Origin: Clostridia bacterium
GTDB taxonomy: Bacteria; Bacillota; Clostridia; TANB77; CAG-508
Assembly: GCA_022794615.1 (NCBI GenBank)
Contig: JAAWFD010000021.1
Location: 12,808 to 76,807, forward strand
Direction: 5' to 3'
Length of the DNA stretch: 64,000 nt
Shown: positions 67 through 48,046 of the stretch, one piece after another
Position numbering within the stretch: position 1 is the stretch's first letter
How the letters are laid out: each line of letters starts with the position of its first letter
Position numbers and translations under genes: made by a program
Notes under the pieces: model-generated
What the model was told of the DNA's origin: nothing
What the model saw: the letters and a program-made list of their open reading frames with translations, nothing else
The model's database searches: none

Positions 67-156
67 TGTGTCATGGGGACGTTCTTTTTGACACAGTTTA
101 TTATATTTTATTATTATAAAATTTTGTGTGTCAAAAAGAACGTCCCCATGACACAC
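67..156. mobile_element. REP/MITE-like element: two perfect 29-bp inverted repeats (TGTGTCATGGGGACGTTCTTTTTGACACA) separated by a 32-bp AT-rich spacer; identical to the termini of the RayT element at 46112..46989
   Basis: 67-95 and 128-156 are exact reverse complements; same 29-mer bounds the transposase gene at 46276..46959. Confidence 0.7.
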
Positions 157-5975: not shown

Positions 5976-6050
5976 GGCCCCTTGGTCAAGCGGTTAAGAC
6001 GCCACCCTCTCAAGGTGGAATCATGGGTTCGATTCCCGTAGGGGTCACCA
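5976..6050 (+). tRNA. tRNA-Glu (anticodon CUC)
   Basis: Cloverleaf by eye: acceptor GGCCCCT/AGGGGTC, D-arm GGTCAAGCGGTTAAGAC, anticodon stem CCACC/GGTGG with loop CTCTCAA, T-arm GGGTTCGATTCCC, 3' ACCA encoded. Confidence 0.75.
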
Positions 6051-6120
6051 ACTACATTCTGTTCGAACTTTTTATAGAACAGAGATATACAAATATCATT
6101 CTGAAAAGGATGGTATTTTT

Positions 6121-9062: not shown

Positions 9063-11792
9063 ATGAAAGAACAAAAAAACTGGTTTAATCAAACAATTGA
9101 AGAAGTAGAACAAAATTTAGAAACAAGTACAAAACAAGGACTAACAACAGAGCAAGTAAAAGAAAGACAAGAAAAGATAGGACTAAATGAATTAAAAGAA
9201 AACAAAAAGAAAAGTACACTACAAAAACTAATTGACCAATTCAAAGACTTTTCAATCATAATACTAATAATAGCTGCAATAGTATCAGGAATAGTAGGAA
9301 TAGCAGAAGGAGAAGGAATAACAGACACAATAGTAATATTAATAGTAGTAGCTATCAATGCAATAATAGGTGTAGCACAAGAAAACAAAGCAGAAAAGTC
9401 ATTAGAAGCATTACAAAAGTTAAGTAGTCATGCAGCAAAGGTATTAAGAAACGGAAAAATAGAAGTAATACCAGCAAGAGAATTAGTACCAGGAGACATT
9501 GTCACAATAGAAACAGGAGACTATATATCAGCTGATTTAAGAATAATAGAGGCAGTAAACTTAAAATCGCAAGAATCTTCATTAACAGGAGAATCAGTAC
9601 CAGTAGAAAAAATGACAAACACAATAGAAGCAAAAGAAATAGGAGTAGGAGATAGGACAAATATGCTATTCTCATCAAGTCTAATTACATATGGAAGAGG
9701 AACAGCAATAGTAGTAGAGACAGGAATGAACACAGAAGTAGGAAAGATAGCAGAAATGTTAAGCACAACAGAAGAACAGAAAACACCATTACAAAACAAA
9801 TTAGACAAACTAGGAAAAACATTAGGAATAGCAGCAATAGGAATATGTATATTCATATTTTTAATAGGAATAATACAAGGAAAAGAGCCAATTAATATGT
9901 TCATGACAGCAGTAAGTTTAGCAGTAGCAGCAATACCAGAAGGATTAGTCGCAGTATCAACAATAGTATTAGCAATAGGTGTACAAAAGATGGTAAAGAA
10001 AAATGCAATAGTAAAAAAATTACCAGCAGTAGAAACGTTAGGAAGTAGTACAGTAATTTGTTCAGACAAAACAGGGACACTAACACAAAACAAAATGACA
10101 GTAAAAAAAGTATTTTGGAACAGTAAATTAGAAGACATAGAAAAAGTAGAAATGGACCATGAATTACAACAACTAATATATGATGCAATATTATGTAATG
10201 ATACAAAAATACTAGAAGATGGAACATTGGCAGGAGACCCAACAGAAACAGCACTAACCGAAATGGCATTCAACTTAAAATTAGATTCAAGCATATATGA
10301 AGATATGCCAAGAATATCAGAAGTACCATTTGATTCAGACAGAAAATTAATGACAACAGTACACAAAATAAATGACAATCTATATAGAGTATTTACAAAA
10401 GGTGGAGTAGATGAGTTATTAAAAAGATGTAAGGGGTATGGGTTAAACGGAAATGTAAGAGAAGACTTAGAAAGATATAAAAAAGAAATAGAGAAAAGCA
10501 ATGAAGAAATGGCAAAAAATGCATTAAGAGTATTAGCATTTGGATATAAAGAAATAGAGCATAAACCAACAAAAGAAGAAATCGAAAATATAGAAAGTGA
10601 ATTAATATTCTTAGGAATGGTAGGAATGATAGACCCACCAAGACAAGAAGCAAAAATAGCAGTAGAGAAATGCAAGACCGCAGGAATAAAAACAGTAATG
10701 ATAACAGGAGACCACAAGATAACAGCAACAGCAATAGCAAAACAATTAGGAATATTAGAAAACGAAGAAGAAGCAATAACAGGAGCAGAATTAGAGCAGA
10801 TGACAGATGAAGAGCTAACAAAAAATGTAAGACAATATTCTGTATATGCAAGAGTATCACCAGAACACAAAGTAAGAATAGTAAAAGCATGGCAAGCAAA
10901 TGGAGAAATAGTAGCAATGACAGGCGATGGAGTAAACGATAGTCCAGCCTTAAAAACAGCAGACATAGGATGTGCCATGGGAAAAGTAGGAACAGAAGTA
11001 GCAAAAGAAGCAGCAGATGTAATATTAACAGATGACAATTTTGCAACAGTAGTATCAGCAGTAGAAGAAGGAAGAAGGATATATGATAATATACTAAAAG
11101 TTATACAATTTTTAATATCTTGCAATGTAGGAGAAGTAATAACATTATTTTTAGCAACACTACTAACGCCTTTATTTGCAAAATGGTTTGGAATAGCAGA
11201 CAGTACATTAATAGAAGTATTATTACCAATCCATATATTATGGATAAACTTAGTAACAGATACTTTACCAGCATTAGCATTAGCATTTGACCCAGCAAAC
11301 AAAGATATAATGCAAAGAAAACCTTTAAAACCAACACAAGGTGTATTTACAAAAGGAATGGTATTTAGAATAGTATATCAAGGAATAATGGTAGGAGTAG
11401 TAACATTATCTGCATTTATGATAGGATTAGCAACAACAAATGCACCAATAGGAGGATTAACATTAGATGAATCTAAAGTAGAAGTAGGTCAAACAATGGC
11501 ATTTGTCACATTATCATTATTAGAATTAGTACATGTATTTAATATAAGAGACAACAAAAATTCACTATTTAAAACAAAAGTATTTAACAATAGTAAATTA
11601 ATATTAGCAGTATTGGCATCATTAGCATTAGTACTAATAATATTATTTGTACCAGCATTAAGAACAATATTTAGTATACCATTATTACCAGTAGGAAATA
11701 TATTAGAAATAGTTGTATTGATATTAATACCAGTTGTAATAGTAGAGATGTTTAAGTTGTTAAAAATAAATACTACAAAAGATGAAGAATAG
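9063..11792 (+). CDS. P-type cation-transporting ATPase (Ca2+/Mg2+-type, P2A-like)
   Basis: 909 aa; phosphorylation motif CSDKTGTLTQN, hinge TGDGVNDSPALKTADIGCAMG, 10 TM pattern. Confidence 0.9.
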   Translation: MKEQKNWFNQTIEEVEQNLETSTKQGLTTEQVKERQEKIGLNELKENKKKSTLQKLIDQFKDFSIIILIIAAIVSGIVGIAEGEGITDTIVILIVVAINAIIGVAQENKAEKSLEALQKLSSHAAKVLRNGKIEVIPARELVPGDIVTIETGDYISADLRIIEAVNLKSQESSLTGESVPVEKMTNTIEAKEIGVGDRTNMLFSSSLITYGRGTAIVVETGMNTEVGKIAEMLSTTEEQKTPLQNKLDKLGKTLGIAAIGICIFIFLIGIIQGKEPINMFMTAVSLAVAAIPEGLVAVSTIVLAIGVQKMVKKNAIVKKLPAVETLGSSTVICSDKTGTLTQNKMTVKKVFWNSKLEDIEKVEMDHELQQLIYDAILCNDTKILEDGTLAGDPTETALTEMAFNLKLDSSIYEDMPRISEVPFDSDRKLMTTVHKINDNLYRVFTKGGVDELLKRCKGYGLNGNVREDLERYKKEIEKSNEEMAKNALRVLAFGYKEIEHKPTKEEIENIESELIFLGMVGMIDPPRQEAKIAVEKCKTAGIKTVMITGDHKITATAIAKQLGILENEEEAITGAELEQMTDEELTKNVRQYSVYARVSPEHKVRIVKAWQANGEIVAMTGDGVNDSPALKTADIGCAMGKVGTEVAKEAADVILTDDNFATVVSAVEEGRRIYDNILKVIQFLISCNVGEVITLFLATLLTPLFAKWFGIADSTLIEVLLPIHILWINLVTDTLPALALAFDPANKDIMQRKPLKPTQGVFTKGMVFRIVYQGIMVGVVTLSAFMIGLATTNAPIGGLTLDESKVEVGQTMAFVTLSLLELVHVFNIRDNKNSLFKTKVFNNSKLILAVLASLALVLIILFVPALRTIFSIPLLPVGNILEIVVLILIPVVIVEMFKLLKINTTKDEE

Positions 11793-20556: not shown

Positions 20557-21579
20557 ATGAATGTATCAGATTTTAATTATTATTTACCAGAAGAATTAAT
20601 CGCCCAAGTACCAATAAGCAAAAGGGATGAATCAAGACTAATGGTACTAAATTGTAAAAAACAAACAATAGAACATAAGGTATTTAAAGATATAATAGAT
20701 TACTTTGAAGAAGGAGATTGTCTAGTAAGAAATAACACAAAAGTATTACCAGCACGATTATATGGGCAGAAAGAAACAGGAGCGAAAGTAGAATTTCTAT
20801 TATTAAATCAAATAGAAGGAGACATATGGGAAACAGCCGTTAGACCAGGAAACAAGCTACATAAAGGAGCAAAGGTAATATTTGGCAATGGACTATTAAA
20901 AGCAGAAGTAATAGACACAATGGAAGGTGGAACAAGAAAAGTAAAATTCGAATATAAAGGAATATTCAATGAAATATTAGACAAACTTGGATTAATGCCA
21001 TTACCACCATATATACATGAAGAATTGAAGGAAAATGACAGATATCAGACAGTATATGCAAAATATCGAGGCTCAGCGGCAGCACCAACAGCTGGATTAC
21101 ATTTTACTGAAGAGCTAATAGAAAAACTTAAACAAAAAGGTGTAAAAATTGCTAATGTTACATTACATGTTGGAATAGGAACATTTAGACCTGTAAAAGT
21201 AGAAAAGATTGAAGAACATCATATGCATTCAGAGCATTTTTATATAAAACAAGAGGATGCAGAAATAATAAACGAAACAAAAAGACAGGGAAAACGCATA
21301 ATCTCAGTAGGTACAACATCTACTAGAGTATTAGAAACTGTAGCAGATGAAAAAGGACTTGTAAAAGAAACAGAAGGAGATACACAAATTTTCATATATC
21401 CAGGGTACACATTCAAGTGTATAGATGGACTAATAACTAATTTTCATTTACCAGAATCAACACTACTAATGCTAGTATCAACATTAGCAGGAAGAGAATA
21501 CATATTAAAAGCATATGAAGAAGCAGTAAAACAAAAATATAGGTTTTTCAGCTTTGGAGATGCCATGTTTATAAGTTAG
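20557..21579 (+). CDS. queA: S-adenosylmethionine:tRNA ribosyltransferase-isomerase
   Basis: [19 protein letters not shown]... typical QueA N-terminus; 340 aa. Confidence 0.9.
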
Positions 21580-21836
21580 CCGTTCGAACGAAGTGAGTTA
21601 CGGATAACTTATGTAAATAACATGAAATGTTATTTACATACATTTAAAAAGCCATTCGAACAAAGTGAGTTACGGATAACTTATGGAAATAACATGAAAT
21701 GTTATTTCCATACATTTAAAAAGCTGTTCGAACAAAGCGAGTTAGGATAACTTATGTAAATAACATGAAATGTTATTTACATACATATAAAAAGCCATTC
21801 GAACAAAGCGAGTTAGGATAACTTATGGAAATAAAA
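21580..21836. repeat. tandem repeat, ~71-72 bp unit x 3.6 copies, each with an 11-bp-stem palindrome (gtaaataacat gaa atgttatttac / ggaaataacat gaa atgttatttcc)
   Basis: Units start at 21580, 21651, 21723, 21794 (gccRttcgaacaaagYgagtta(c)ggataacttatg...); contiguous, no spacers. Confidence 0.8.
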
Positions 21837-21932: not shown

Positions 21933-23060
<1,128 letters not shown>

Positions 23061-27501: not shown

Positions 27502-27535
27502 AATCAAAAGAAAAAGACTTTGTGTGATAGGGACG

Positions 27536-27600
27536 TGTGTCATGGGGACGTACATTTTGACATAATATAGGTATGTCAAAATGTACGTCCCCATGACACA
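27536..27600. repeat. REP-like perfect hairpin: 29-bp stem, 7-nt loop; variant of the RayT terminal repeat
   Basis: 27536-27564 is the exact reverse complement of 27572-27600; shares TGTGTCATGGGGACGT...TTTTGACA with the 46112/46961 repeats; a degenerate partial copy tgtgtgatagggacg lies at 27521-27535. Confidence 0.75.
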
Positions 27601-43448: not shown

Positions 43449-43482
43449 CGCTCCAACGACGTTTCTGTTCGAACTAATAGAA
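43449..43482. repeat. 34-bp direct repeat copy 2 (att-like), identical to 40621..40654
   Basis: Exact match; downstream sequence also resembles the region 3' of tRNA-Glu (6057-6120). Confidence 0.8.
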
Positions 43483-43491
43483 CGGATAGAT

Positions 43492-43794
43492 ATGAATATC
43501 ATTCTGAAAAGGATGGTATTTGAAATGAAGATAATTAAGCAAAAACTAGAATTTGAGGAATGTCTAAAGCAAAGGCTGGAATTTATATGTGAGTTTTCTA
43601 AAGTTACTCCTATTTTTATCAAAGGTAGCATTAGAAAATTAGAGAGAACTAATCTTACATATATTGAAACACATAGAGTTATTATTAAAAACATTACTTT
43701 TTTAGTGTTTAATTACTCTAATGATGTGTATATTACTAACTTAACTAAAAAGATTAAATTATCAGAGTTAGAAGAATATTTCAAAAACAAATGA
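43492..43794 (+). CDS. hypothetical small protein (likely start at 43525, MKIIKQK..)
   Basis: ORF; N-terminus paralogous to 40739 ORF; no motif. Confidence 0.3.
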   Translation: MNIILKRMVFEMKIIKQKLEFEECLKQRLEFICEFSKVTPIFIKGSIRKLERTNLTYIETHRVIIKNITFLVFNYSNDVYITNLTKKIKLSELEEYFKNK

Positions 43795-45480: not shown

Positions 45481-46107
45481 ATGAAGGCGATAGAAATAAA
45501 ACATCCACTAATAGAACACAAAGTTGGAATAATGAGAGACAAAAGAACAGGAACAAAAGAGTTTAGAGAGCTTGCTAGTGAAATTGCGATGTTTTTATGT
45601 TATGAAGCAATGAGAGATGCACAAACAGAAGAAATAGAAATAGAGACACCAATAACAAAAACAGTAACGAAAAAAGTAAATGAAGACAAATATGCATTTA
45701 TACCAATATTAAGAGCAGGAATGGGAATGTCAGAAGGAATAATAAGAATTATACCAAATGCTAAGATAGGAGTAATTGGGTTATATCGTAACGAGGAAAC
45801 ATTAGAACCAGTAAGATACTATTACAAAGTACCAAAAGACATTAAAGAAAGAGAAGTAATATTATTAGACCCCATGCTTGCAACTGGAGGATCAGCAATA
45901 GATGCTATAAAAATGATAAAAGAAGACGGAGTAAAGAAAATTAAGTTTTTATGCTTGATAGCAGCACCAGAAGGAATAAAAAGGGTAGAAGAAGCCTATC
46001 CAGATGTTCAAATATATTGTGCACAAATAGATGACCATTTAAATGAAATAGGATATATAGTACCAGGTTTAGGAGATGCAGGAGATAGAATATTTGGAAT
46101 AAAATAA
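45481..46107 (+). CDS. upp: uracil phosphoribosyltransferase
   Basis: HPLIEHKVGIMRDKRTGTKEFRELASEIA.., PRPP-binding VILLDPMLATGGSA. Confidence 0.9.
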   Translation: MKAIEIKHPLIEHKVGIMRDKRTGTKEFRELASEIAMFLCYEAMRDAQTEEIEIETPITKTVTKKVNEDKYAFIPILRAGMGMSEGIIRIIPNAKIGVIGLYRNEETLEPVRYYYKVPKDIKEREVILLDPMLATGGSAIDAIKMIKEDGVKKIKFLCLIAAPEGIKRVEEAYPDVQIYCAQIDDHLNEIGYIVPGLGDAGDRIFGIK

Positions 46108-46111
46108 TTTT

Positions 46112-46989
46112 TGTGTCATGGGGACGTTCTTTTTGACACACACCAATAAATACTTCAAAAAAATCATAAAATTAGAAAATAGAACAAATTTCGACACAAC
46201 AACAAGGAATAATATGATATAATAAAGATAATTTTTATATCATATTATTTTTTATCTAATTTAAAAGGAGGCACAATGCCAAGATTTCCAAGAAGTTATA
46301 TCAAAACATTTTTATTTCATATAGTAACCCAAGGAATTAACAAGAGTTACATATTTGAAAATTCAAACGACATAAAATATTATATAAACATAATGAATCT
46401 ATTAAGTGAAAACTGCGAAGTTAAAATACTAGCATATTGTGTGATGAATAATCATACACATATGCTAGTAGAAACTGAGCAGGTTGAAAAATTAAGTAAA
46501 TATATGCAACGATTAAATACAAAGTATGCAAAATATTACAACAAGAAATATGAAAGAGTAGGATATGTATTTAGAAATAGATATTGTTCACAAGGAATTT
46601 ATAATGAAGAACAGTTATATAATTGTATGATGTATATTTACAATAATCCAGTAAAAGCAGGTATATGTAAAGAAGCAAAAGACTATCCATATTCTAATTA
46701 TAAAGAAATAAAAGTAAAATTAAAAGAAGAATATACATTTATAGATGCAAATGAAGAGCCACCTATCGAATGTAAAAATATAATAAAAAAGTTTTTAAAA
46801 GAAAATAATATAAATTTACAAGAATTAAAAGAAGATAGCCAAAGACTTGAAGAGCTGATAACCATATTGAAAAAAGACAATGGTATATCATTAAGAAAGA
46901 TATCTGAACAATTAGAGCTAAATAGAGAAAAAGTAAGAAGACTATATAATAAGCAATAAGTGTGTCAAAAAGAACGTCCCCATGACACA
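46112..46989 (+). mobile_element. RayT-type (IS200/Y1 HuH) transposase element bounded by perfect 29-bp inverted repeats
   Basis: IR-L 46112-46140 TGTGTCATGGGGACGTTCTTTTTGACACA; IR-R 46961-46989 is its exact reverse complement; single gene inside. Confidence 0.75.
46276..46959 (+). CDS. REP-associated tyrosine transposase (RayT/TnpA_REP, IS200-like Y1 HuH), with C-terminal HTH-like extension
   Basis: HuH motif NNHTHMLVE; Y1 motif MMYIYNNPVKAGI (YIxxNPVKAG); 227 aa. Confidence 0.7.
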   Translation: MPRFPRSYIKTFLFHIVTQGINKSYIFENSNDIKYYINIMNLLSENCEVKILAYCVMNNHTHMLVETEQVEKLSKYMQRLNTKYAKYYNKKYERVGYVFRNRYCSQGIYNEEQLYNCMMYIYNNPVKAGICKEAKDYPYSNYKEIKVKLKEEYTFIDANEEPPIECKNIIKKFLKENNINLQELKEDSQRLEELITILKKDNGISLRKISEQLELNREKVRRLYNKQ

Positions 46990-47140
46990 TCCCATTGACA
47001 TTGAAACAAAATGTGGTAAAATATAAAAAAACAAAAAATAAGAAAAGGAGAAGTTAGTTTATAATATGTAATATATATATGTACATATAAAATTTAAGGC
47101 ATATAAATTATTAACATAATAACTAATGTAAAAAATAAGA

Positions 47141-48046
47141 ATGGGATTTTTTGATAAATTAAAACAAGGGTTAAGCAAAACAAAAACATCATTTGATGAA
47201 AAAATAAACAATGTATTCAGTAATTTCAGAAAAGTAGATGAAGACTTTTTAGAAGAATTAGAAGAGGCATTAATATTATCAGATATAGGAATAGAAACAT
47301 CAGTTAAAATAATAGGAAGACTAAGAGAAAGAGTAAAAAAAGAAAAGATAGAAGATGAAGAACAAGTAAGACAAACACTAAGAGAAGAAATAATAAAAAT
47401 ATTAGATGTAGAGAACAAAGAATTAAAACTAGAAACAAAACCATCAGTAGTATTAGTAATAGGAGTAAATGGAGTAGGAAAAACAACATCAATAGGAAAA
47501 ATAGCAGCAAGACTAACAAAAGAAGGGAAAAAGGTAGTAATTGCAGCAGCAGATACATTTAGAGCAGCAGCAGTAGAACAATTAGAAATATGGGCAAAAA
47601 GAAGTAACTCAGAAATAGTAAAAAGAGAAGAAGGAATAGACCCAGCTTCAGTAGTATATGAAGCAATAAAAAGAACAAAAGAAACAAATGCAGATGTTTT
47701 AATTTGCGATACAGCAGGAAGATTACACAACAAGAAATACTTAATGGATGAATTAAATAAAATACAAAAAGTAATTAATAAAGAAATGACTGAATGCTCA
47801 AAAGAAGTATTATTAGTAATAGATGGAACAACAGGACAAAATGCTATATCACAAGTAAAAGCATTCAAAGAAGAAGCAGATATAACAGGACTAGTATTAA
47901 CAAAATTAGATGGTACTGCAAAAGGTGGAGTAGTAATAGGAATAGTAGAAGAAAATAAGATACCAGTTAAGTTTATAGGTGTTGGTGAACAAATTGATGA
48001 TATGGAAATCTTTAATTCTAAAGATTTTGTAAAAGCAATTATATAA
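47141..48046 (+). CDS. ftsY: signal recognition particle receptor FtsY
   Basis: SRP GTPase motifs VIGVNGVGKTTSIGK, DTAGR, TKLDG. Confidence 0.9.
   Translation: MGFFDKLKQGLSKTKTSFDEKINNVFSNFRKVDEDFLEELEEALILSDIGIETSVKIIGRLRERVKKEKIEDEEQVRQTLREEIIKILDVENKELKLETKPSVVLVIGVNGVGKTTSIGKIAARLTKEGKKVVIAAADTFRAAAVEQLEIWAKRSNSEIVKREEGIDPASVVYEAIKRTKETNADVLICDTAGRLHNKKYLMDELNKIQKVINKEMTECSKEVLLVIDGTTGQNAISQVKAFKEEADITGLVLTKLDGTAKGGVVIGIVEENKIPVKFIGVGEQIDDMEIFNSKDFVKAII

What the first reader, a model, noticed from the sequence alone, without database searches (positions are those of the whole stretch)
46112..46989. RayT-type tyrosine transposase with perfect 29-bp REP-like termini, plus dispersed transposase-less copies: a REP/RAYT system in a Clostridium-like genome
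The 227-aa protein at 46276..46959 carries both signatures of the IS200/Y1 HuH family: NNHTHMLVE and YIYNNPVKAG (the YIxxNPVKAG version typical of REP-associated transposases, COG1943). The gene is bounded by a 29-mer (TGTGTCATGGGGACGTTCTTTTTGACACA) at 46112-46140 and its exact reverse complement at 46961-46989. Each 29-mer is itself an imperfect palindrome (TGTGTCA..TGACACA). The same 29-mer pair without any gene occurs at 67..156, and a compensated variant occurs at 27536..27600. This is the organisation described for REP/BIME and RAYT systems, best known from Gammaproteobacteria. The C-terminal ~70-aa extension with an HTH-like tail is longer than classical RayT.
Basis: partly seen in the sequence, partly recalled or inferred. 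Interest (0 to 1): 0.75.

Follow-up and report, generated by a model that had tools for sequence, protein, structure and literature searches.

The report
Hairpin repeats with their tyrosine transposase
A single-copy tyrosine (HUH) transposase gene sits between two inverted copies of a 29-base hairpin repeat that is also scattered, without the gene, behind other genes in this gut Clostridia genome; this is a clear example of an already described but never experimentally studied class (TIR-associated relatives of REP transposases).

Summary
The 29-mer occurs six times in the window where none is expected by chance. It flanks the 227-aa gene as a perfect inverted pair. It also forms two gene-less inverted doublets, at 67-155 and 27536-27600.

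The protein is a Y1 HUH enzyme. It passes NCBI's REP-associated tyrosine transposase model and fails the IS200 model. E. coli TnpA_REP (4ER8) is its closest solved structure. It is nevertheless much closer to the published TIRYTs (TIR-associated tyrosine transposases, Di Nocera 2013; subclass 2.1 of Quentin 2018) than to classical RAYTs. It carries a C-terminal DnaA-domain-IV-like helix-turn-helix domain.

The repeat has no GTAG tag. It is a 7-8 bp stem with a 15-nt loop holding an invariant TGGGGACG. The same hairpin sits next to homologues of 27-88% identity in Clostridia, Negativicutes and Coriobacteriia. The stem covaries, and adjacent pairs always point heads-out.

The closest genome holds at least 13 copies at 9 loci and one gene. 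The gene is at the orthologous site and under purifying selection (dN/dS 0.27).

Verdict: a real but ordinary new member of a known kind. Mobilisation of the repeats by the enzyme is inferred, not shown.

The parts
46112..46141 (+). Left terminal repeat of the gene unit (29-mer; the arm is 30 nt). Hairpin TGTGTCA / 15-nt loop TGGGGACGTTCTTTT / TGACACA. It starts 4 nt after the upp stop codon.
   Evidence: Exact match. 30-nt perfect inverted repeat with 46960-46989 (I10). Fold. Identical in the sister genome L011/L036.
46191..46218 (+). Promoter-like site TCGACA-16-TATGAT inside the unit. The motif CAAATTTCGACA ... TATGATATAAT is conserved in orthologues of 60-88% identity.
   Evidence: Consensus scan, 10 of 12 positions. 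Conserved blocks are visible in L011, L013 and L016 upstream regions and in the window/L011 alignment. Function is inferred.
46208..46255 (+). Conserved A+T hairpin (ATAATATGATATAAT...ATATCATATTAT) followed by a T-run. It overlaps the -10 region. It probably stops read-through from upp, as in IS200 (inference).
   Evidence: DNA fold -10.5 kcal/mol, z -5.2. Fully conserved between the window and L011 while flanking non-coding DNA diverges. Present in L013 and L016.
46264..46271 (+). Ribosome-binding site AAAGGAGG, 4 nt before the ATG.
   Evidence: Read directly from the sequence.
46276..46959 (+). TIRYT-type Y1 HUH transposase gene, 227 aa. The Y1 domain is aa 1-143, with HUH H60/H62 and catalytic Y120 in Y-x-x-x-N-P. 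The conserved YPYSNY serine motif is at aa 137-142. The linker is aa 144-165. The C-terminal five-helix DnaA-domain-IV-like HTH is aa 166-225.
   Evidence: Pfam Y1_Tnp 1.3e-12. NF047646 85 bits, above cut-off. Invariant residues in 34 homologues. 4ER8 is the best PDB hit by profile and by Foldseek. AF2 models. C-terminal fold match to DnaA domain IV, TM 0.68-0.71. BLASTP to published TIRYTs.
46960..46989 (-). Right terminal repeat, the exact reverse complement of the left one. It starts directly after the stop codon.
   Evidence: All ten independent Logan contigs carrying this gene end at its outer edge.
46990..47000 (-). Degenerate partial copy of the repeat head (TGTCAATGGGA on the minus strand) abutting the right repeat on its outer side. 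It supplies the TTGACA of a promoter-like site for ftsY (46995-47022).
   Evidence: Sequence. Promoter scan 11 of 12 positions with TG. L011 has an extra 11-nt copy at the same place.
67..155 (.). Gene-less inverted doublet: two exact 29-mers, heads outward, with a 31-nt spacer. It lies in the 108-bp gap between two convergent genes (upstream stop at 64-66, murC stop at 175).
   Evidence: Fold -35.7 kcal/mol, z -14.
27521..27535 (+). 15-nt partial copy of the repeat head (TGTGTGATAGGGACG, 2 mismatches), directly abutting the next full copy.
   Evidence: 7 matches against 0.12 expected. The same arrangement is conserved in the sister genome L065.
27536..27600 (.). Gene-less inverted doublet of a variant 29-mer (T17A, T19A, C28T in both arms) with a 7-nt spacer. 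It lies between nrdD-like (stop 27501) and mnmA-like (start 27631) genes.
   Evidence: Arms 100% complementary (I13). Fold -34.1 kcal/mol. Orthologous identical doublet in L065.

Best explanation
This is a TIRtron-type unit. A single-copy, chromosomally fixed Y1 HUH tyrosine transposase of the TIRYT class is bracketed by two inverted copies of its own 29-nt recognition hairpin. TIRYTs are the RAYT-related subclass 2.1 with a C-terminal HTH. The same genome carries a small population of the same hairpin without the gene, as heads-out inverted doublets (65-89 bp, REPIN- or MITE-like) and as singlets. These lie in intergenic DNA, usually within about 40 nt downstream of a stop codon.

**Proposed mechanism (inferred by homology with E. 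coli TnpA_REP and IS608 TnpA).**
1. When DNA is single-stranded, for instance at the replication fork, each unit folds into a 7-8 bp stem with a 15-nt loop that displays the invariant TGGGGACG.
2. The N-terminal HUH domain (H60, H62, Y120) binds this hairpin, nicks and rejoins DNA through a 5'-phosphotyrosine, and so moves or copies doublets in trans without target-site duplication.
3. The DnaA-domain-IV-like HTH adds a second, probably duplex, DNA contact.

**Shown here.**
- The sequence anatomy.
- Homology and fold.
- Conservation of the protein-hairpin pairing across phyla.
- Stem covariation and fixed polarity of pairs.
- Single copy at an orthologous site, with purifying selection.
- Repeats conserved far above neutral expectation.

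**Inferred only.** Catalysis, the single-stranded substrate, mobilisation in trans, and the cleavage position.
For: 1. **Enzyme class.**
   - Pfam Y1_Tnp hit.
   - NF047646 passes and the IS200 model fails.
   - H60, H62, Y120, N124 and P125 are invariant in 34 homologues.
   - 4ER8 TnpA_REP is the best solved relative by sequence profile (E 1.5e-4, residues 1-143).
   - It is also the best by structure (Foldseek E 2.5e-7, TM 0.71).
2. **TIRYT rather than RAYT.** BLASTP against the Di Nocera 2013 reference set gives 115, 105, 103 and 94 bits to TIRYTs. It gives 55, 53 and 38 bits to RAYTs.
3. **C-terminal domain.**
   - The domain model has pLDDT 89.
   - Its full-length fold match is to DnaA domain IV (3pvp TM 0.71, 1j1v TM 0.68).
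   - Its HTH core matches DeoR and LsrR.
   - Weak HTH_23 hits occur in distant homologues.
   - This is as described for subclass 2.1 (PMC6006769).
4. **Protein-repeat pairing is conserved.**
   - Orthologues of 64-88% identity at three different chromosomal sites are flanked by the same kind of inverted hairpin.
   - Homologues of 27-41% identity sit beside GTCATGGGGACG-N5-TTTGAC repeats. They come from Eubacteriales, Tindallia, Syntrophomonas, Sporomusaceae and Coriobacteriaceae.
5. **The hairpin is selected.** On 98 distinct units, the pairs outside the fixed GTCA/TGAC covary (UA 63, AU 21, GC 2 at the first outer pair). The covariation score is 0.229 against 0.091 in shuffles, 0 of 500 reaching it. 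Slid controls give at most 0.11.
6. **Polarity.** 11 of 11 adjacent pairs in six genomes are heads-out, the same as around the gene.
7. **Dispersal.**
   - The window has 3 loci.
   - The GTDB representative CAMUDX01 is 92-97% identical to the window in nucleotides.
   - It has at least 13 copies at 9 or more loci, 11 of them exact.
   - It has one gene. This is a lower bound because the scan was truncated.
8. **Location.** None of the copies lies in a gene. 7 of 10 loci are within 41 nt downstream of a stop codon.
9. **Vertical, constrained gene.**
   - The gene is at the same upp-ftsY site in both lineages.
   - Its dS (0.22) is like that of its neighbours (0.15-0.30).
   - Its dN/dS is 0.27, against 0.03-0.06 for the neighbours.
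10. **Conserved repeats.** There are 0 differences in 116 nt of orthologous repeat arms at that divergence.
11. **No target-site duplication** at any of the three loci (sequence). This is expected for Y1 HUH transposition.
12. **Chromosomal.** Rare on plasmids and absent from viral contigs.
Against: - No transposition event was observed. The two lineages compared share both orthologous repeat loci, so there is no presence/absence polymorphism that proves mobility.
- Known copy number is modest and is only a lower bound. The window's own genome could not be scanned whole.
- The single hairpin is weak on its own (-4 kcal/mol, 15-nt loop).
- Four of its stem pairs were fixed by the search pattern, so covariation rests on the outer 1-3 pairs only.
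- No TIRYT has been characterised biochemically, so every mechanistic step is borrowed from TnpA_REP and IS608.
- The gene sits at different chromosomal sites in different species. The whole unit has therefore moved or been re-acquired at some time, which is IS-like behaviour.
- dN/dS of 0.27 is relaxed compared with housekeeping neighbours.
Confidence: 0.8

Rival explanations
1. The 878-bp unit is an ordinary autonomous insertion sequence: an IS200-like Y1 gene with terminal inverted repeats. On this view it copies itself, and the gene-less doublets are its MITE-type internal-deletion derivatives. It would not be a domesticated single-copy enzyme serving a repeat population.
For: - The doublets have exactly the polarity of the gene's termini (heads-out, 11 of 11), as expected for deletion derivatives.
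- The gene occupies different sites in different species.
- It has its own conserved promoter and a read-through-blocking hairpin, like IS200.
- Its dN/dS is higher than that of housekeeping genes.
- Bertels 2017 notes that Group 1 RAYTs are the most IS-like.
Against: - Only one copy is in the window.
- Only one copy is among at least 9 repeat loci of the sister genome.
- The site is orthologous, with dS equal to that of neighbours.
- All contigs found for each of three orthologues show a single context.
- The IS200 model fails.
- The family is very rare on plasmids and viral contigs.
Confidence: 0.12
2. The repeats are primarily host structural or regulatory elements, such as 3'-UTR stabilising hairpins, terminators, promoter donors or protein-binding sites. 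They would be maintained by selection. The Y1-HTH protein would be a domesticated DNA-binding or processing factor for them, with no ongoing transposition.
For: - 7 of 10 loci lie within 41 nt downstream of stop codons and none is in a gene.
- The doublets make very stable hairpins that would be transcribed into 3' UTRs.
- The repeats are perfectly conserved at dS of about 0.2.
- Each unit carries a TTGACA, and a partial copy supplies the -35 of a promoter-like site for ftsY.
- Both orthologous doublets are stable between lineages.
Against: - The hairpins are not followed by T-runs, and the scan finds no terminator-like site.
- At 67-155 a separate classical terminator hairpin follows the doublet.
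- The catalytic HUH and Tyr residues are invariant across the family, which argues for retained nuclease or ligase chemistry.
- Strain-polymorphic 11-nt and 14-nt duplications occur exactly at the outer repeat ends.
- Partial heads pile up on the outer side, 22 of 143 against 5 of 143 on the inner side. This indicates ongoing DNA processing at the ends.
- Location downstream of genes can equally be a survivorship filter.
- This reading is compatible with the main one rather than exclusive of it.
Confidence: 0.07
3. The association is coincidental: unrelated palindromic terminators happen to flank a decayed transposase remnant.
For: None beyond the A+T-rich, palindrome-rich background of the genome (443 inverted pairs listed).
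Against: - Six copies are found where 0.00 is expected.
- The arms are perfect 30-nt inverted repeats.
- The ORF is intact and under purifying selection.
- The same motif sits beside homologues in several phyla.
Confidence: 0.01

Closest known systems
TIRtrons / TIRYTs (TIR-associated tyrosine transposases), Di Nocera, De Gregorio & Rocco 2013, BMC Genomics 14:522 (PMC3733652)
   Same: - A RAYT-like Y1 gene, longer than RAYTs, flanked by long terminal inverted repeats instead of GTAG REPs.
- The TIRs share a G-rich motif. The published consensus is GGGGWSAS; here it is GGGGACGT or GGGGACGG.
- In some genomes the TIRs form moderately abundant dispersed families of singles, dimers and clusters.
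- The protein's best BLASTP hits in their reference alignment are TIRYTs: gbm_2474 at 115 bits and dau_2153 at 105 bits.
   Different: - Position 7 of the motif is G, not A.
- The C-terminal tail here is an HTH (ISLRKIAEEL-NRE-VRRIY). The published, mostly proteobacterial, examples have a ...GRPxG...F...GRPRK tail.
- Here the TIR is itself a stem-loop with a covarying stem, a point not made in that paper.
- No Clostridia from gut were in their set.
TnpA_Y1 subclass 2.1, probably subgroup 2.1.2, of Quentin, Siguier, Chandler & Fichant 2018, BMC Genomics 19:475 (PMC6006769)
   Same: - Class 2 signature Y---NP.
- Conserved serine motif just after the catalytic Tyr (YPYSNY here).
- Additional C-terminal HTH related to Bac_DnaA_C, HTH_23 or HTH_28.
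- Low copy number.
- Patchy distribution across phyla.
   Different: - They report that no REP-like secondary structure was found near subclass 2.1 genes. Here the flanking repeat is a hairpin with covariation support and is dispersed.
- Placement in their tree was not tested, because no reference profiles were available.
REP / REPIN-RAYT systems (Nunvar 2010; Bertels & Rainey 2011; Ton-Hoang 2012; structure 4ER8, Messing 2012)
   Same: - A single-copy, vertically inherited Y1 transposase flanked by inverted palindromic repeats.
- The repeats are dispersed as inverted doublets downstream of genes.
- There is no target-site duplication.
- 4ER8 is the closest solved structure.
- It passes NCBIfam NF047646.
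   Different: - No 5' GTAG tag.
- The loop is 15 nt with the conserved sequence inside it, rather than a short loop with a tag outside the stem.
- Known copy number is in the tens, not hundreds.
- There is an extra HTH domain.
- Sequence similarity to true RAYTs is low (38-55 bits).
IS200/IS605 TnpA elements (IS200, IS608, ISDra2)
   Same: - The same HUH/Y1 fold.
- Hairpin-dependent single-strand chemistry is expected.
- There is a read-through-blocking hairpin at the left end, as in IS200.
   Different: - It fails the IS200 model (23 bits against a cut-off of 55).
- It has terminal inverted repeats, whereas IS200/IS605 ends are not inverted repeats.
- No tnpB is present.
- It is single copy.

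Membership tests
Y1 HUH transposase superfamily (Pfam PF01797) | HUH metal-binding motif and a single catalytic tyrosine on the alpha-beta HUH fold | tested here: met
   - Pfam Y1_Tnp E 1.3e-12, 48 bits against a cut-off of 23.
- H60, H62 and Y120 are invariant in 34 homologues.
- Foldseek hits to 4ER8 and to IS608, ISDra2 and IS200 TnpA, all with probability 1.00.
RAYT (REP-associated tyrosine transposase, class 2 TnpA_REP) | Class 2 Tyr motif Y-x-x-x-N-P and a score above the curated RAYT model but not the IS200 model | tested here: met
   - The motif is Y120-I-Y-N-N124-P125.
- NF047646 scores 85 bits against a cut-off of 80.
- NF033573 (IS200) scores 23 bits against a cut-off of 55.
RAYT (REP-associated tyrosine transposase, class 2 TnpA_REP) | Flanking and dispersed REPs that carry the unpaired 5' GTAG tag next to a short-loop palindrome | tested here: not met
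   There is no GTAG next to any copy. The conserved sequence TGGGGACG lies inside a 15-nt loop.
RAYT (REP-associated tyrosine transposase, class 2 TnpA_REP) | Closer in sequence to RAYTs than to other class 2 groups | tested here: not met
   BLASTP gives 38-55 bits to RAYTs (eco b228, pfs 3939, sml 2816). It gives 75-115 bits to TIRYTs.
RAYT (REP-associated tyrosine transposase, class 2 TnpA_REP) | One copy per genome, vertically inherited | tested here: inconclusive
   - One copy is in the 64-kb window.
- One copy is among at least 9 repeat loci of the sister genome.
- The locus is orthologous, with dS like that of neighbours.
- No complete genome could be scanned.
TIRYT / TIRtron (Di Nocera 2013) | RAYT-like protein with TIRYT sequence signatures (MPRxxR..., [AG]YC[LV]MxNHxH, WSS/YSN after the Tyr motif) | tested here: met
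   - The best BLASTP hits in their Additional file 5 are TIRYTs: gbm_2474 at 2e-35 and dau_2153 at 2e-31.
- The signatures MPRFPR, AYCVMNNHTH and YPYSNY are present.
TIRYT / TIRtron (Di Nocera 2013) | Gene flanked by long terminal inverted repeats | tested here: met
   30-nt arms, 100% complementary, 818 nt apart (I10). The same holds in orthologues.
TIRYT / TIRtron (Di Nocera 2013) | TIRs contain the motif GGGGWSAS | tested here: inconclusive
   Here the motif is GGGGACGT, and GGGGACGG in relatives. That fits 6-7 of 8 positions, with G instead of A at position 7. The published TIR sequences are in a figure that is not held, so no direct alignment was possible.
TIRYT / TIRtron (Di Nocera 2013) | TIR copies also dispersed as singles, dimers or clusters in the genome (in some species) | tested here: met
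   - The window has two gene-less doublets.
- The sister genome has at least 13 copies as singlets and doublets.
- Multi-copy in Coriobacteriaceae, Mobiluncus, Syntrophomonadaceae and Family XIII genomes.
TnpA_Y1 subclass 2.1 (Quentin 2018) | C-terminal HTH domain related to Bac_DnaA_C, HTH_23 or HTH_28, plus a conserved serine motif after the Tyr | tested here: met
   - The AF2 C-terminal domain has pLDDT 89.
- DnaA domain IV matches at TM 0.68-0.71 over 70 columns, but with weak E-values.
- HTH_23 scores 1.3e-4 in a distant homologue, below Pfam's cut-off.
- S140 is invariant.
TnpA_Y1 subclass 2.1 (Quentin 2018) | Placement inside the 2.1 clade of their tree or MCL clustering | not tested
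   Their profiles and sequence lists are not available in the held supplements.
IS200/IS605 insertion sequence | TnpA of IS200 type; several near-identical copies; ends not inverted; often tnpB | tested here: not met
   - The IS200 model is below its cut-off.
- It is single copy.
- It has perfect TIRs.
- Its neighbours are upp and ftsY, with no tnpB.
Any of the above as an active transposase | Binding, cleavage and strand transfer on the single-stranded repeat | not testable with these tools
   This requires biochemistry or population sequencing.

The most novel reading that the evidence does not exclude
The 29-nt unit may be the general substrate of the whole HTH-bearing TIRYT clade. It is a stem-loop whose 15-nt loop presents an invariant TGGGGACG, kept from 28%-GC gut Clostridia to 60%-GC Coriobacteriia and Actinomycetes. 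This would contradict the published view that subclass 2.1 enzymes lack REP-like structured partners.

The enzyme might then nick inside the loop, as Rep proteins and relaxases do, rather than outside the hairpin as IS608 and TnpA_REP do. The outer-side pile-up of truncated repeat heads would be the footprint of that chemistry. Examples are GTCATGGG, GTCATGGGGACG and arrays of CCCATGACTC, some of which are strain-polymorphic.

That would define a second, mechanistically distinct, vertically inherited repeat-transposase partnership alongside REPIN-RAYT.
Probability: 0.25. Interest if true: 0.6.

Novelty: new member of a known kind. Interest (0 to 1): 0.35.

Why it matters
- **An unstudied but large class.** TIRYT / subclass 2.1 enzymes are reported as the second largest group of Y1 HUH proteins (14.9% of strains in Quentin 2018). 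About 25,000 representative clusters at 50% identity match here. None has been studied biochemically, and only two papers in the held library use the name.
- **A clean test case.** The locus offers a short, perfectly defined hairpin substrate, one gene, a handful of doublets and close relatives for comparison. An in-vitro test of whether TIRYTs act on hairpins, and where they cut, is therefore straightforward.
- **Gut genome evolution.** It shows that REPIN-like repeat populations exist in low-GC gut Clostridia. There they sit in 3' UTRs and can donate -35 boxes, so they may affect gene expression and break short-read assemblies.
- **Limits.** It does not open a new category. The kind of system is already in the literature and in NCBI's annotation models.

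Tried and rejected
1. **CGTC-tagged REPs (Di Nocera 2013).** The reverse strand reads CGTCCCC, so I considered this family. I rejected it. Those REPs have 8-9 bp stems and 4-5 nt loops, with CGTC as an unpaired terminal tag and no associated transposase. Here CGTC lies inside a 15-nt loop.
2. **Whole-genome copy count.** Counts per genome are therefore lower bounds.
3. **JGI metagenomes.** The exact 29-mer was not found.
4. **Viral contigs.** The two motif hits lack the stem and the gene and look like coding chance matches.
5. **Spacer similarity.** (I1) reports 63 nt at 81% between the 67-155 doublet and the left interior of the gene unit. Beyond the 30-32 nt arm this is only A+T-rich resemblance, so I did not use it as evidence that doublets are deletion derivatives.
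6. **Terminator function.** The scan found no terminator-like site in 45900-47200, and the doublets are not followed by T-runs.
7. **DnaA-box idea.** TTTGACACA in this lineage matches TTWTNCACA at 8 of 9 positions. The CACA part is not conserved in other lineages' repeats, so I treat it as coincidence.
8. **Logan contigs.** I first read the fact that all ten end at the right repeat as proof of multicopy repeats. It may equally reflect the strain-variable junction just outside the repeat. I keep it as an observation only.
9. **Literature search by sequence strings.** It returned only primers and unrelated genes.
10. **Supplement search (Quentin 2018).** A search for Clostridia members found nothing.
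12. **Rfam.** Only two tRNAs were found in the window.
Full report

Yes. The 29-mer TGTGTCATGGGGACGTTCTTTTTGACACA is exact at 46112-46140 (+), 46961-46989 (-), 67-95 (+) and 127-155 (-). A variant carrying the same three substitutions in both arms lies at 27536-27564 (+) and 27572-27600 (-). That is six matches where dinucleotide-preserving shuffles give none.

- The arms around the gene are 30 nt and perfectly complementary (I10).
- All GGGGACG heptamers in the window belong to these copies.
- The ORF 46276-46959 encodes 227 aa with NNHTHMLVE and YIYNNPVKAG.
- As single-stranded DNA each unit folds into a 7-bp stem with a 15-nt loop (-4 kcal/mol).
- Each doublet folds into a long hairpin (-34 to -36 kcal/mol, z about -12 to -14).
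- A 15-nt partial head (27521-27535) abuts the third locus.
- A degenerate partial head (46990-47000) abuts the right arm of the gene unit.
- All three loci are intergenic. They start 1, 19 and 4 nt after a stop codon.
- None shows a target-site duplication (read from the sequence).

**2. What is the protein?**

- *Profile searches.* Pfam finds Y1_Tnp (1.3e-12). NCBIfam's equivalog 'REP-associated tyrosine transposase' scores 85 bits, just above its cut-off of 80. The IS200 model scores 23 bits against a cut-off of 55.
- *Conserved residues.* In 34 homologues H60, H62, Y120, N124 and P125 are invariant, as is a YPYSNY motif with S140.
- *Closest structure.* A family profile finds E. coli TnpA_REP (4ER8) as the only significant solved relative, over residues 1-143. 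An AlphaFold model (pLDDT 84.8) also matches 4ER8 best (Foldseek E 2.5e-7, TM 0.71). The IS608, ISDra2 and IS200 transposases come next.
- *C-terminal domain.* Residues 166-225 form a separate five-helix domain. Modelled alone (pLDDT 89), it superposes over its full length on DnaA domain IV (3pvp TM 0.71, 1j1v TM 0.68). Its HTH core superposes on DeoR and LsrR. The E-values are weak, as expected for 68 residues.
- *Distant homologues.* They end in the same ...LSVRxIAELLGVNRxVVER motif and give sub-threshold HTH_23 hits.

**3. Which known class?**

Two papers settle this.

- Di Nocera et al. 2013 (PMC3733652) described RAYT-like genes flanked by long terminal inverted repeats rather than GTAG REPs. 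The repeats share GGGGWSAS, and some species hold moderately abundant dispersed TIR families. They named these TIRtrons and TIRYTs.
- Quentin et al. 2018 (PMC6006769) equate these with TnpA_Y1 subclass 2.1. Its marks are a C-terminal HTH related to Bac_DnaA_C, HTH_23 or HTH_28, and a serine motif after the catalytic tyrosine.

I rebuilt the reference sequences from Di Nocera's Additional file 5 and ran BLASTP. The window protein scores 115, 105, 103 and 94 bits to TIRYTs (gbm_2474, dau_2153, tkm_1558, pca_3049). It scores only 55, 53 and 38 bits to RAYTs (sml_2816, pfs_3939, eco b228).

The repeat has GGGGACGT, one position off the published consensus, and no GTAG. The element is therefore a TIRYT/TIRtron, not a classical REP/RAYT pair, although it is organised like one and very probably works like one. 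Bertels et al. 2017 (PMC5581495) already note RAYT Group 1 in Clostridia.

**4. Is the gene-repeat pairing meaningful?**

*Close orthologues.* The exact protein is NCBI's 'MAG: hypothetical protein HFJ47_02755 [Clostridia bacterium]'. Orthologues of 60-88% identity are common in gut metagenomes.

- The 88% orthologue sits at the same upp-ftsY site with identical 30-mers (L011, L012).
- Two 64% orthologues sit at other sites, TraX/radical-SAM and DUF1653/ssrA.
- Those are flanked by GTCAATGGGGACGGAGAATTTTGAC-type inverted repeats, which are also dispersed in those loci.

It found multi-copy families in very distant taxa:

- Coriobacteriaceae RUG14646, at least 16 copies;
- Mobiluncus porci, at least 11;
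- a Syntrophomonadaceae MAG, at least 13;
- a Family XIII MAG, at least 10;
- Butyrivibrio and Nitrospira.

In eight of those 8-kb stretches a homologue of the protein (27-41% identity, 246-269 aa, same HTH tail) lies beside the repeat.

*The hairpin is selected.* On 98 distinct units, the base pairs just outside the fixed GTCA/TGAC covary (U-A 63, A-U 21, G-C 2). The covariation score is 0.229 against 0.091 in shuffles (0 of 500 reach it). With slid partners it is at most 0.11. The four inner pairs were fixed by the search pattern and carry no information.

*Polarity.* Adjacent copies are always heads-out (11 of 11 pairs in six genomes), the same polarity as around the gene.

**5. Copy number and inheritance**

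- The GTDB representative CAMUDX01 is 92-97% identical to the window in nucleotides. It holds at least 13 copies at 9 or more loci, 11 of them exact, and one gene. This is a lower bound.
- Together with the window, 7 of 10 loci lie within 41 nt downstream of a stop codon, and none lies in a gene.
- Between the two lineages the gene has dS 0.22, against 0.15-0.30 for neighbours. Its dN/dS is 0.27, against 0.03-0.06 for neighbours. It is therefore co-inherited at this site and constrained, though less so than housekeeping genes.
- The four orthologous repeat arms (116 nt) show no substitution at that divergence.
- The internal promoter-like TCGACA-16-TATGAT and the hairpin-plus-T-run at 46208-46255 are conserved too.
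- The family is large: 25,355 representatives of 50% clusters at E up to 1e-3, and 9,049 at 1e-10.
- It is chromosomal. Matches occur in 17 of 72,556 plasmid records, all below 35% identity. There are no true viral hits.

**6. How it most likely works**

*Shown.* The anatomy, the fold, the catalytic residues, the conserved pairing, the stem covariation, the polarity, the single constrained copy and the conserved repeats.

*Inferred from TnpA_REP (4ER8) and IS608.* The unit folds when single-stranded. The HUH domain recognises the stem and the TGGGGACG loop and cuts and rejoins through Y120. Doublets are then moved or copied in trans. The HTH adds a second DNA contact.

Because pairs are heads-out, each strand carries a G-loop hairpin at its 5' end and a C-loop hairpin at its 3' end. 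The same chemistry can therefore act on either strand.

*A hint about where DNA is processed.* Truncated repeat heads pile up on the outer (5') side of full units: 22 of 143, against 5 of 143 on the inner side. Some of these are strain-polymorphic:

- an 11-nt duplication in L011 relative to the window;
- a 14-nt duplication in L013 relative to L015;
- arrays of CCCATGACTC beside a Syntrophomonas gene.

Their end points vary (after GGG, GGGG, GAC or GACG), so they do not fix a cleavage site. A cut inside the loop remains a speculation.

**7. Rivals**

- *Ordinary IS with MITE derivatives (0.12).* The polarity of doublets and the different sites in different species fit this. The single copy, the orthologous site, the failed IS200 model and the rarity on plasmids argue against it.
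- *Host-maintained regulatory hairpins with a domesticated protein (0.07).* This fits the 3'-end location and the strong conservation. It does not explain the invariant catalytic residues or the instability at repeat ends. It is compatible with the main reading rather than exclusive of it.
- *Chance.* Excluded.

**8. Verdict**

The family label needs refining to TIRYT/TIRtron, subclass 2.1 with an HTH tail. Its occurrence in Clostridia is not new.

What this analysis adds:
- the flanking TIR of this clade is itself a covarying stem-loop with an invariant loop octamer, conserved across phyla;
- pairs have a fixed polarity;
- truncated heads accumulate on the outer side.

These are modest additions to a class that has never been studied experimentally. 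Novelty: new member of a known kind. Interest: 0.35.

Noticed in passing
window 21578-21834: A 72-nt tandem repeat in 3.6 copies (92% matches) fills the gap between queA (20557-21579) and tgt (21936-23060). Each unit contains a 31-nt palindrome TATGTAAATAACATGAAATGTTATTTACATA. In the sister genome the same gap holds a 438-aa ORF instead (L065 6179-7495) and no tandem repeat.
   Followed up: partly
window 6074-6118 and 43477-43521: Two copies of a 45-nt element, 89% identical. One lies just after the tRNA at 5976-6047. The other lies upstream of the uracil/xanthine permease gene (44116). Each is preceded by a TCTGTTC...GAACAGA hairpin and ends in a terminator-like GGATGGTAT plus T-run. Neither matches an Rfam family at gathering threshold.
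   Followed up: no
window 46990-47022: A promoter-like site for ftsY (TTGACA-16-TGgTAAAAT, 11 of 12 positions plus TG) takes its -35 hexamer from a degenerate partial copy of the repeat head just outside the right repeat. It is conserved in L011. Every full repeat also carries a TTGACA that points into the unit.
   Followed up: partly
window 46191-46255; also L011, L013, L016 upstream of the gene: The 5' leader of the transposase gene is conserved among orthologues of 60-88% identity. It has a promoter-like CAAATTTCGACA ... TATGATATAAT overlapping a hairpin followed by a T-run. The layout recalls the read-through terminator at the left end of IS200.
   Followed up: partly
L011 4975-5030 vs window 46960-47000; L013 vs L015 at 10685-10730; L115 and L054 flanks: Truncated copies of the repeat head stack on the outer side of full repeats, and some differ between strains. 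L011 has an 11-nt duplication (CCCATGACACA) relative to the window. L013 has a 14-nt duplication (CGTCCCCATTGACA) relative to L015. A Syntrophomonas gene has an array of five CCCATGACTC units beside it. Overall, 22 of 143 repeats have a partial head within 30 nt on the outer side, against 5 of 143 on the inner side.
   Followed up: partly
L001-L010 (Logan contigs carrying the exact protein): All ten independent short-read contigs end 27-30 nt after the stop codon, at the outer edge of the right repeat, while they run through the left repeat. This could be a repeat-induced or a strain-polymorphism-induced break in the assembly graph. The two were not resolved.
   Followed up: partly
window 46130-46140 and the other repeat tails: In this lineage the repeat tail TTTGACACA matches the DnaA-box consensus TTWTNCACA at 8 of 9 positions, while the protein's C-terminal domain has a DnaA-domain-IV-like fold. 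The CACA part is not conserved in other lineages' repeats (TGACTCA, TGACTT, TGACAAC), so this is probably coincidence.
   Followed up: partly
L016 10720-10760: In one human-gut relative the gene unit lies directly next to the 3' end of what looks like the tmRNA gene (…GGAGTTCGACTCTCCTCATCTCCACCA on the opposite strand). No RNA search was run on that locus.
   Followed up: no
window 27536-27600: The variant doublet carries the same three changes in both arms, so the inter-arm hairpin stays perfect. One change (C28T) turns a stem pair within each arm into G-T, which would be a tolerated G-U in RNA. The same variant doublet is present in the sister genome (L065 491-555).
   Followed up: partly
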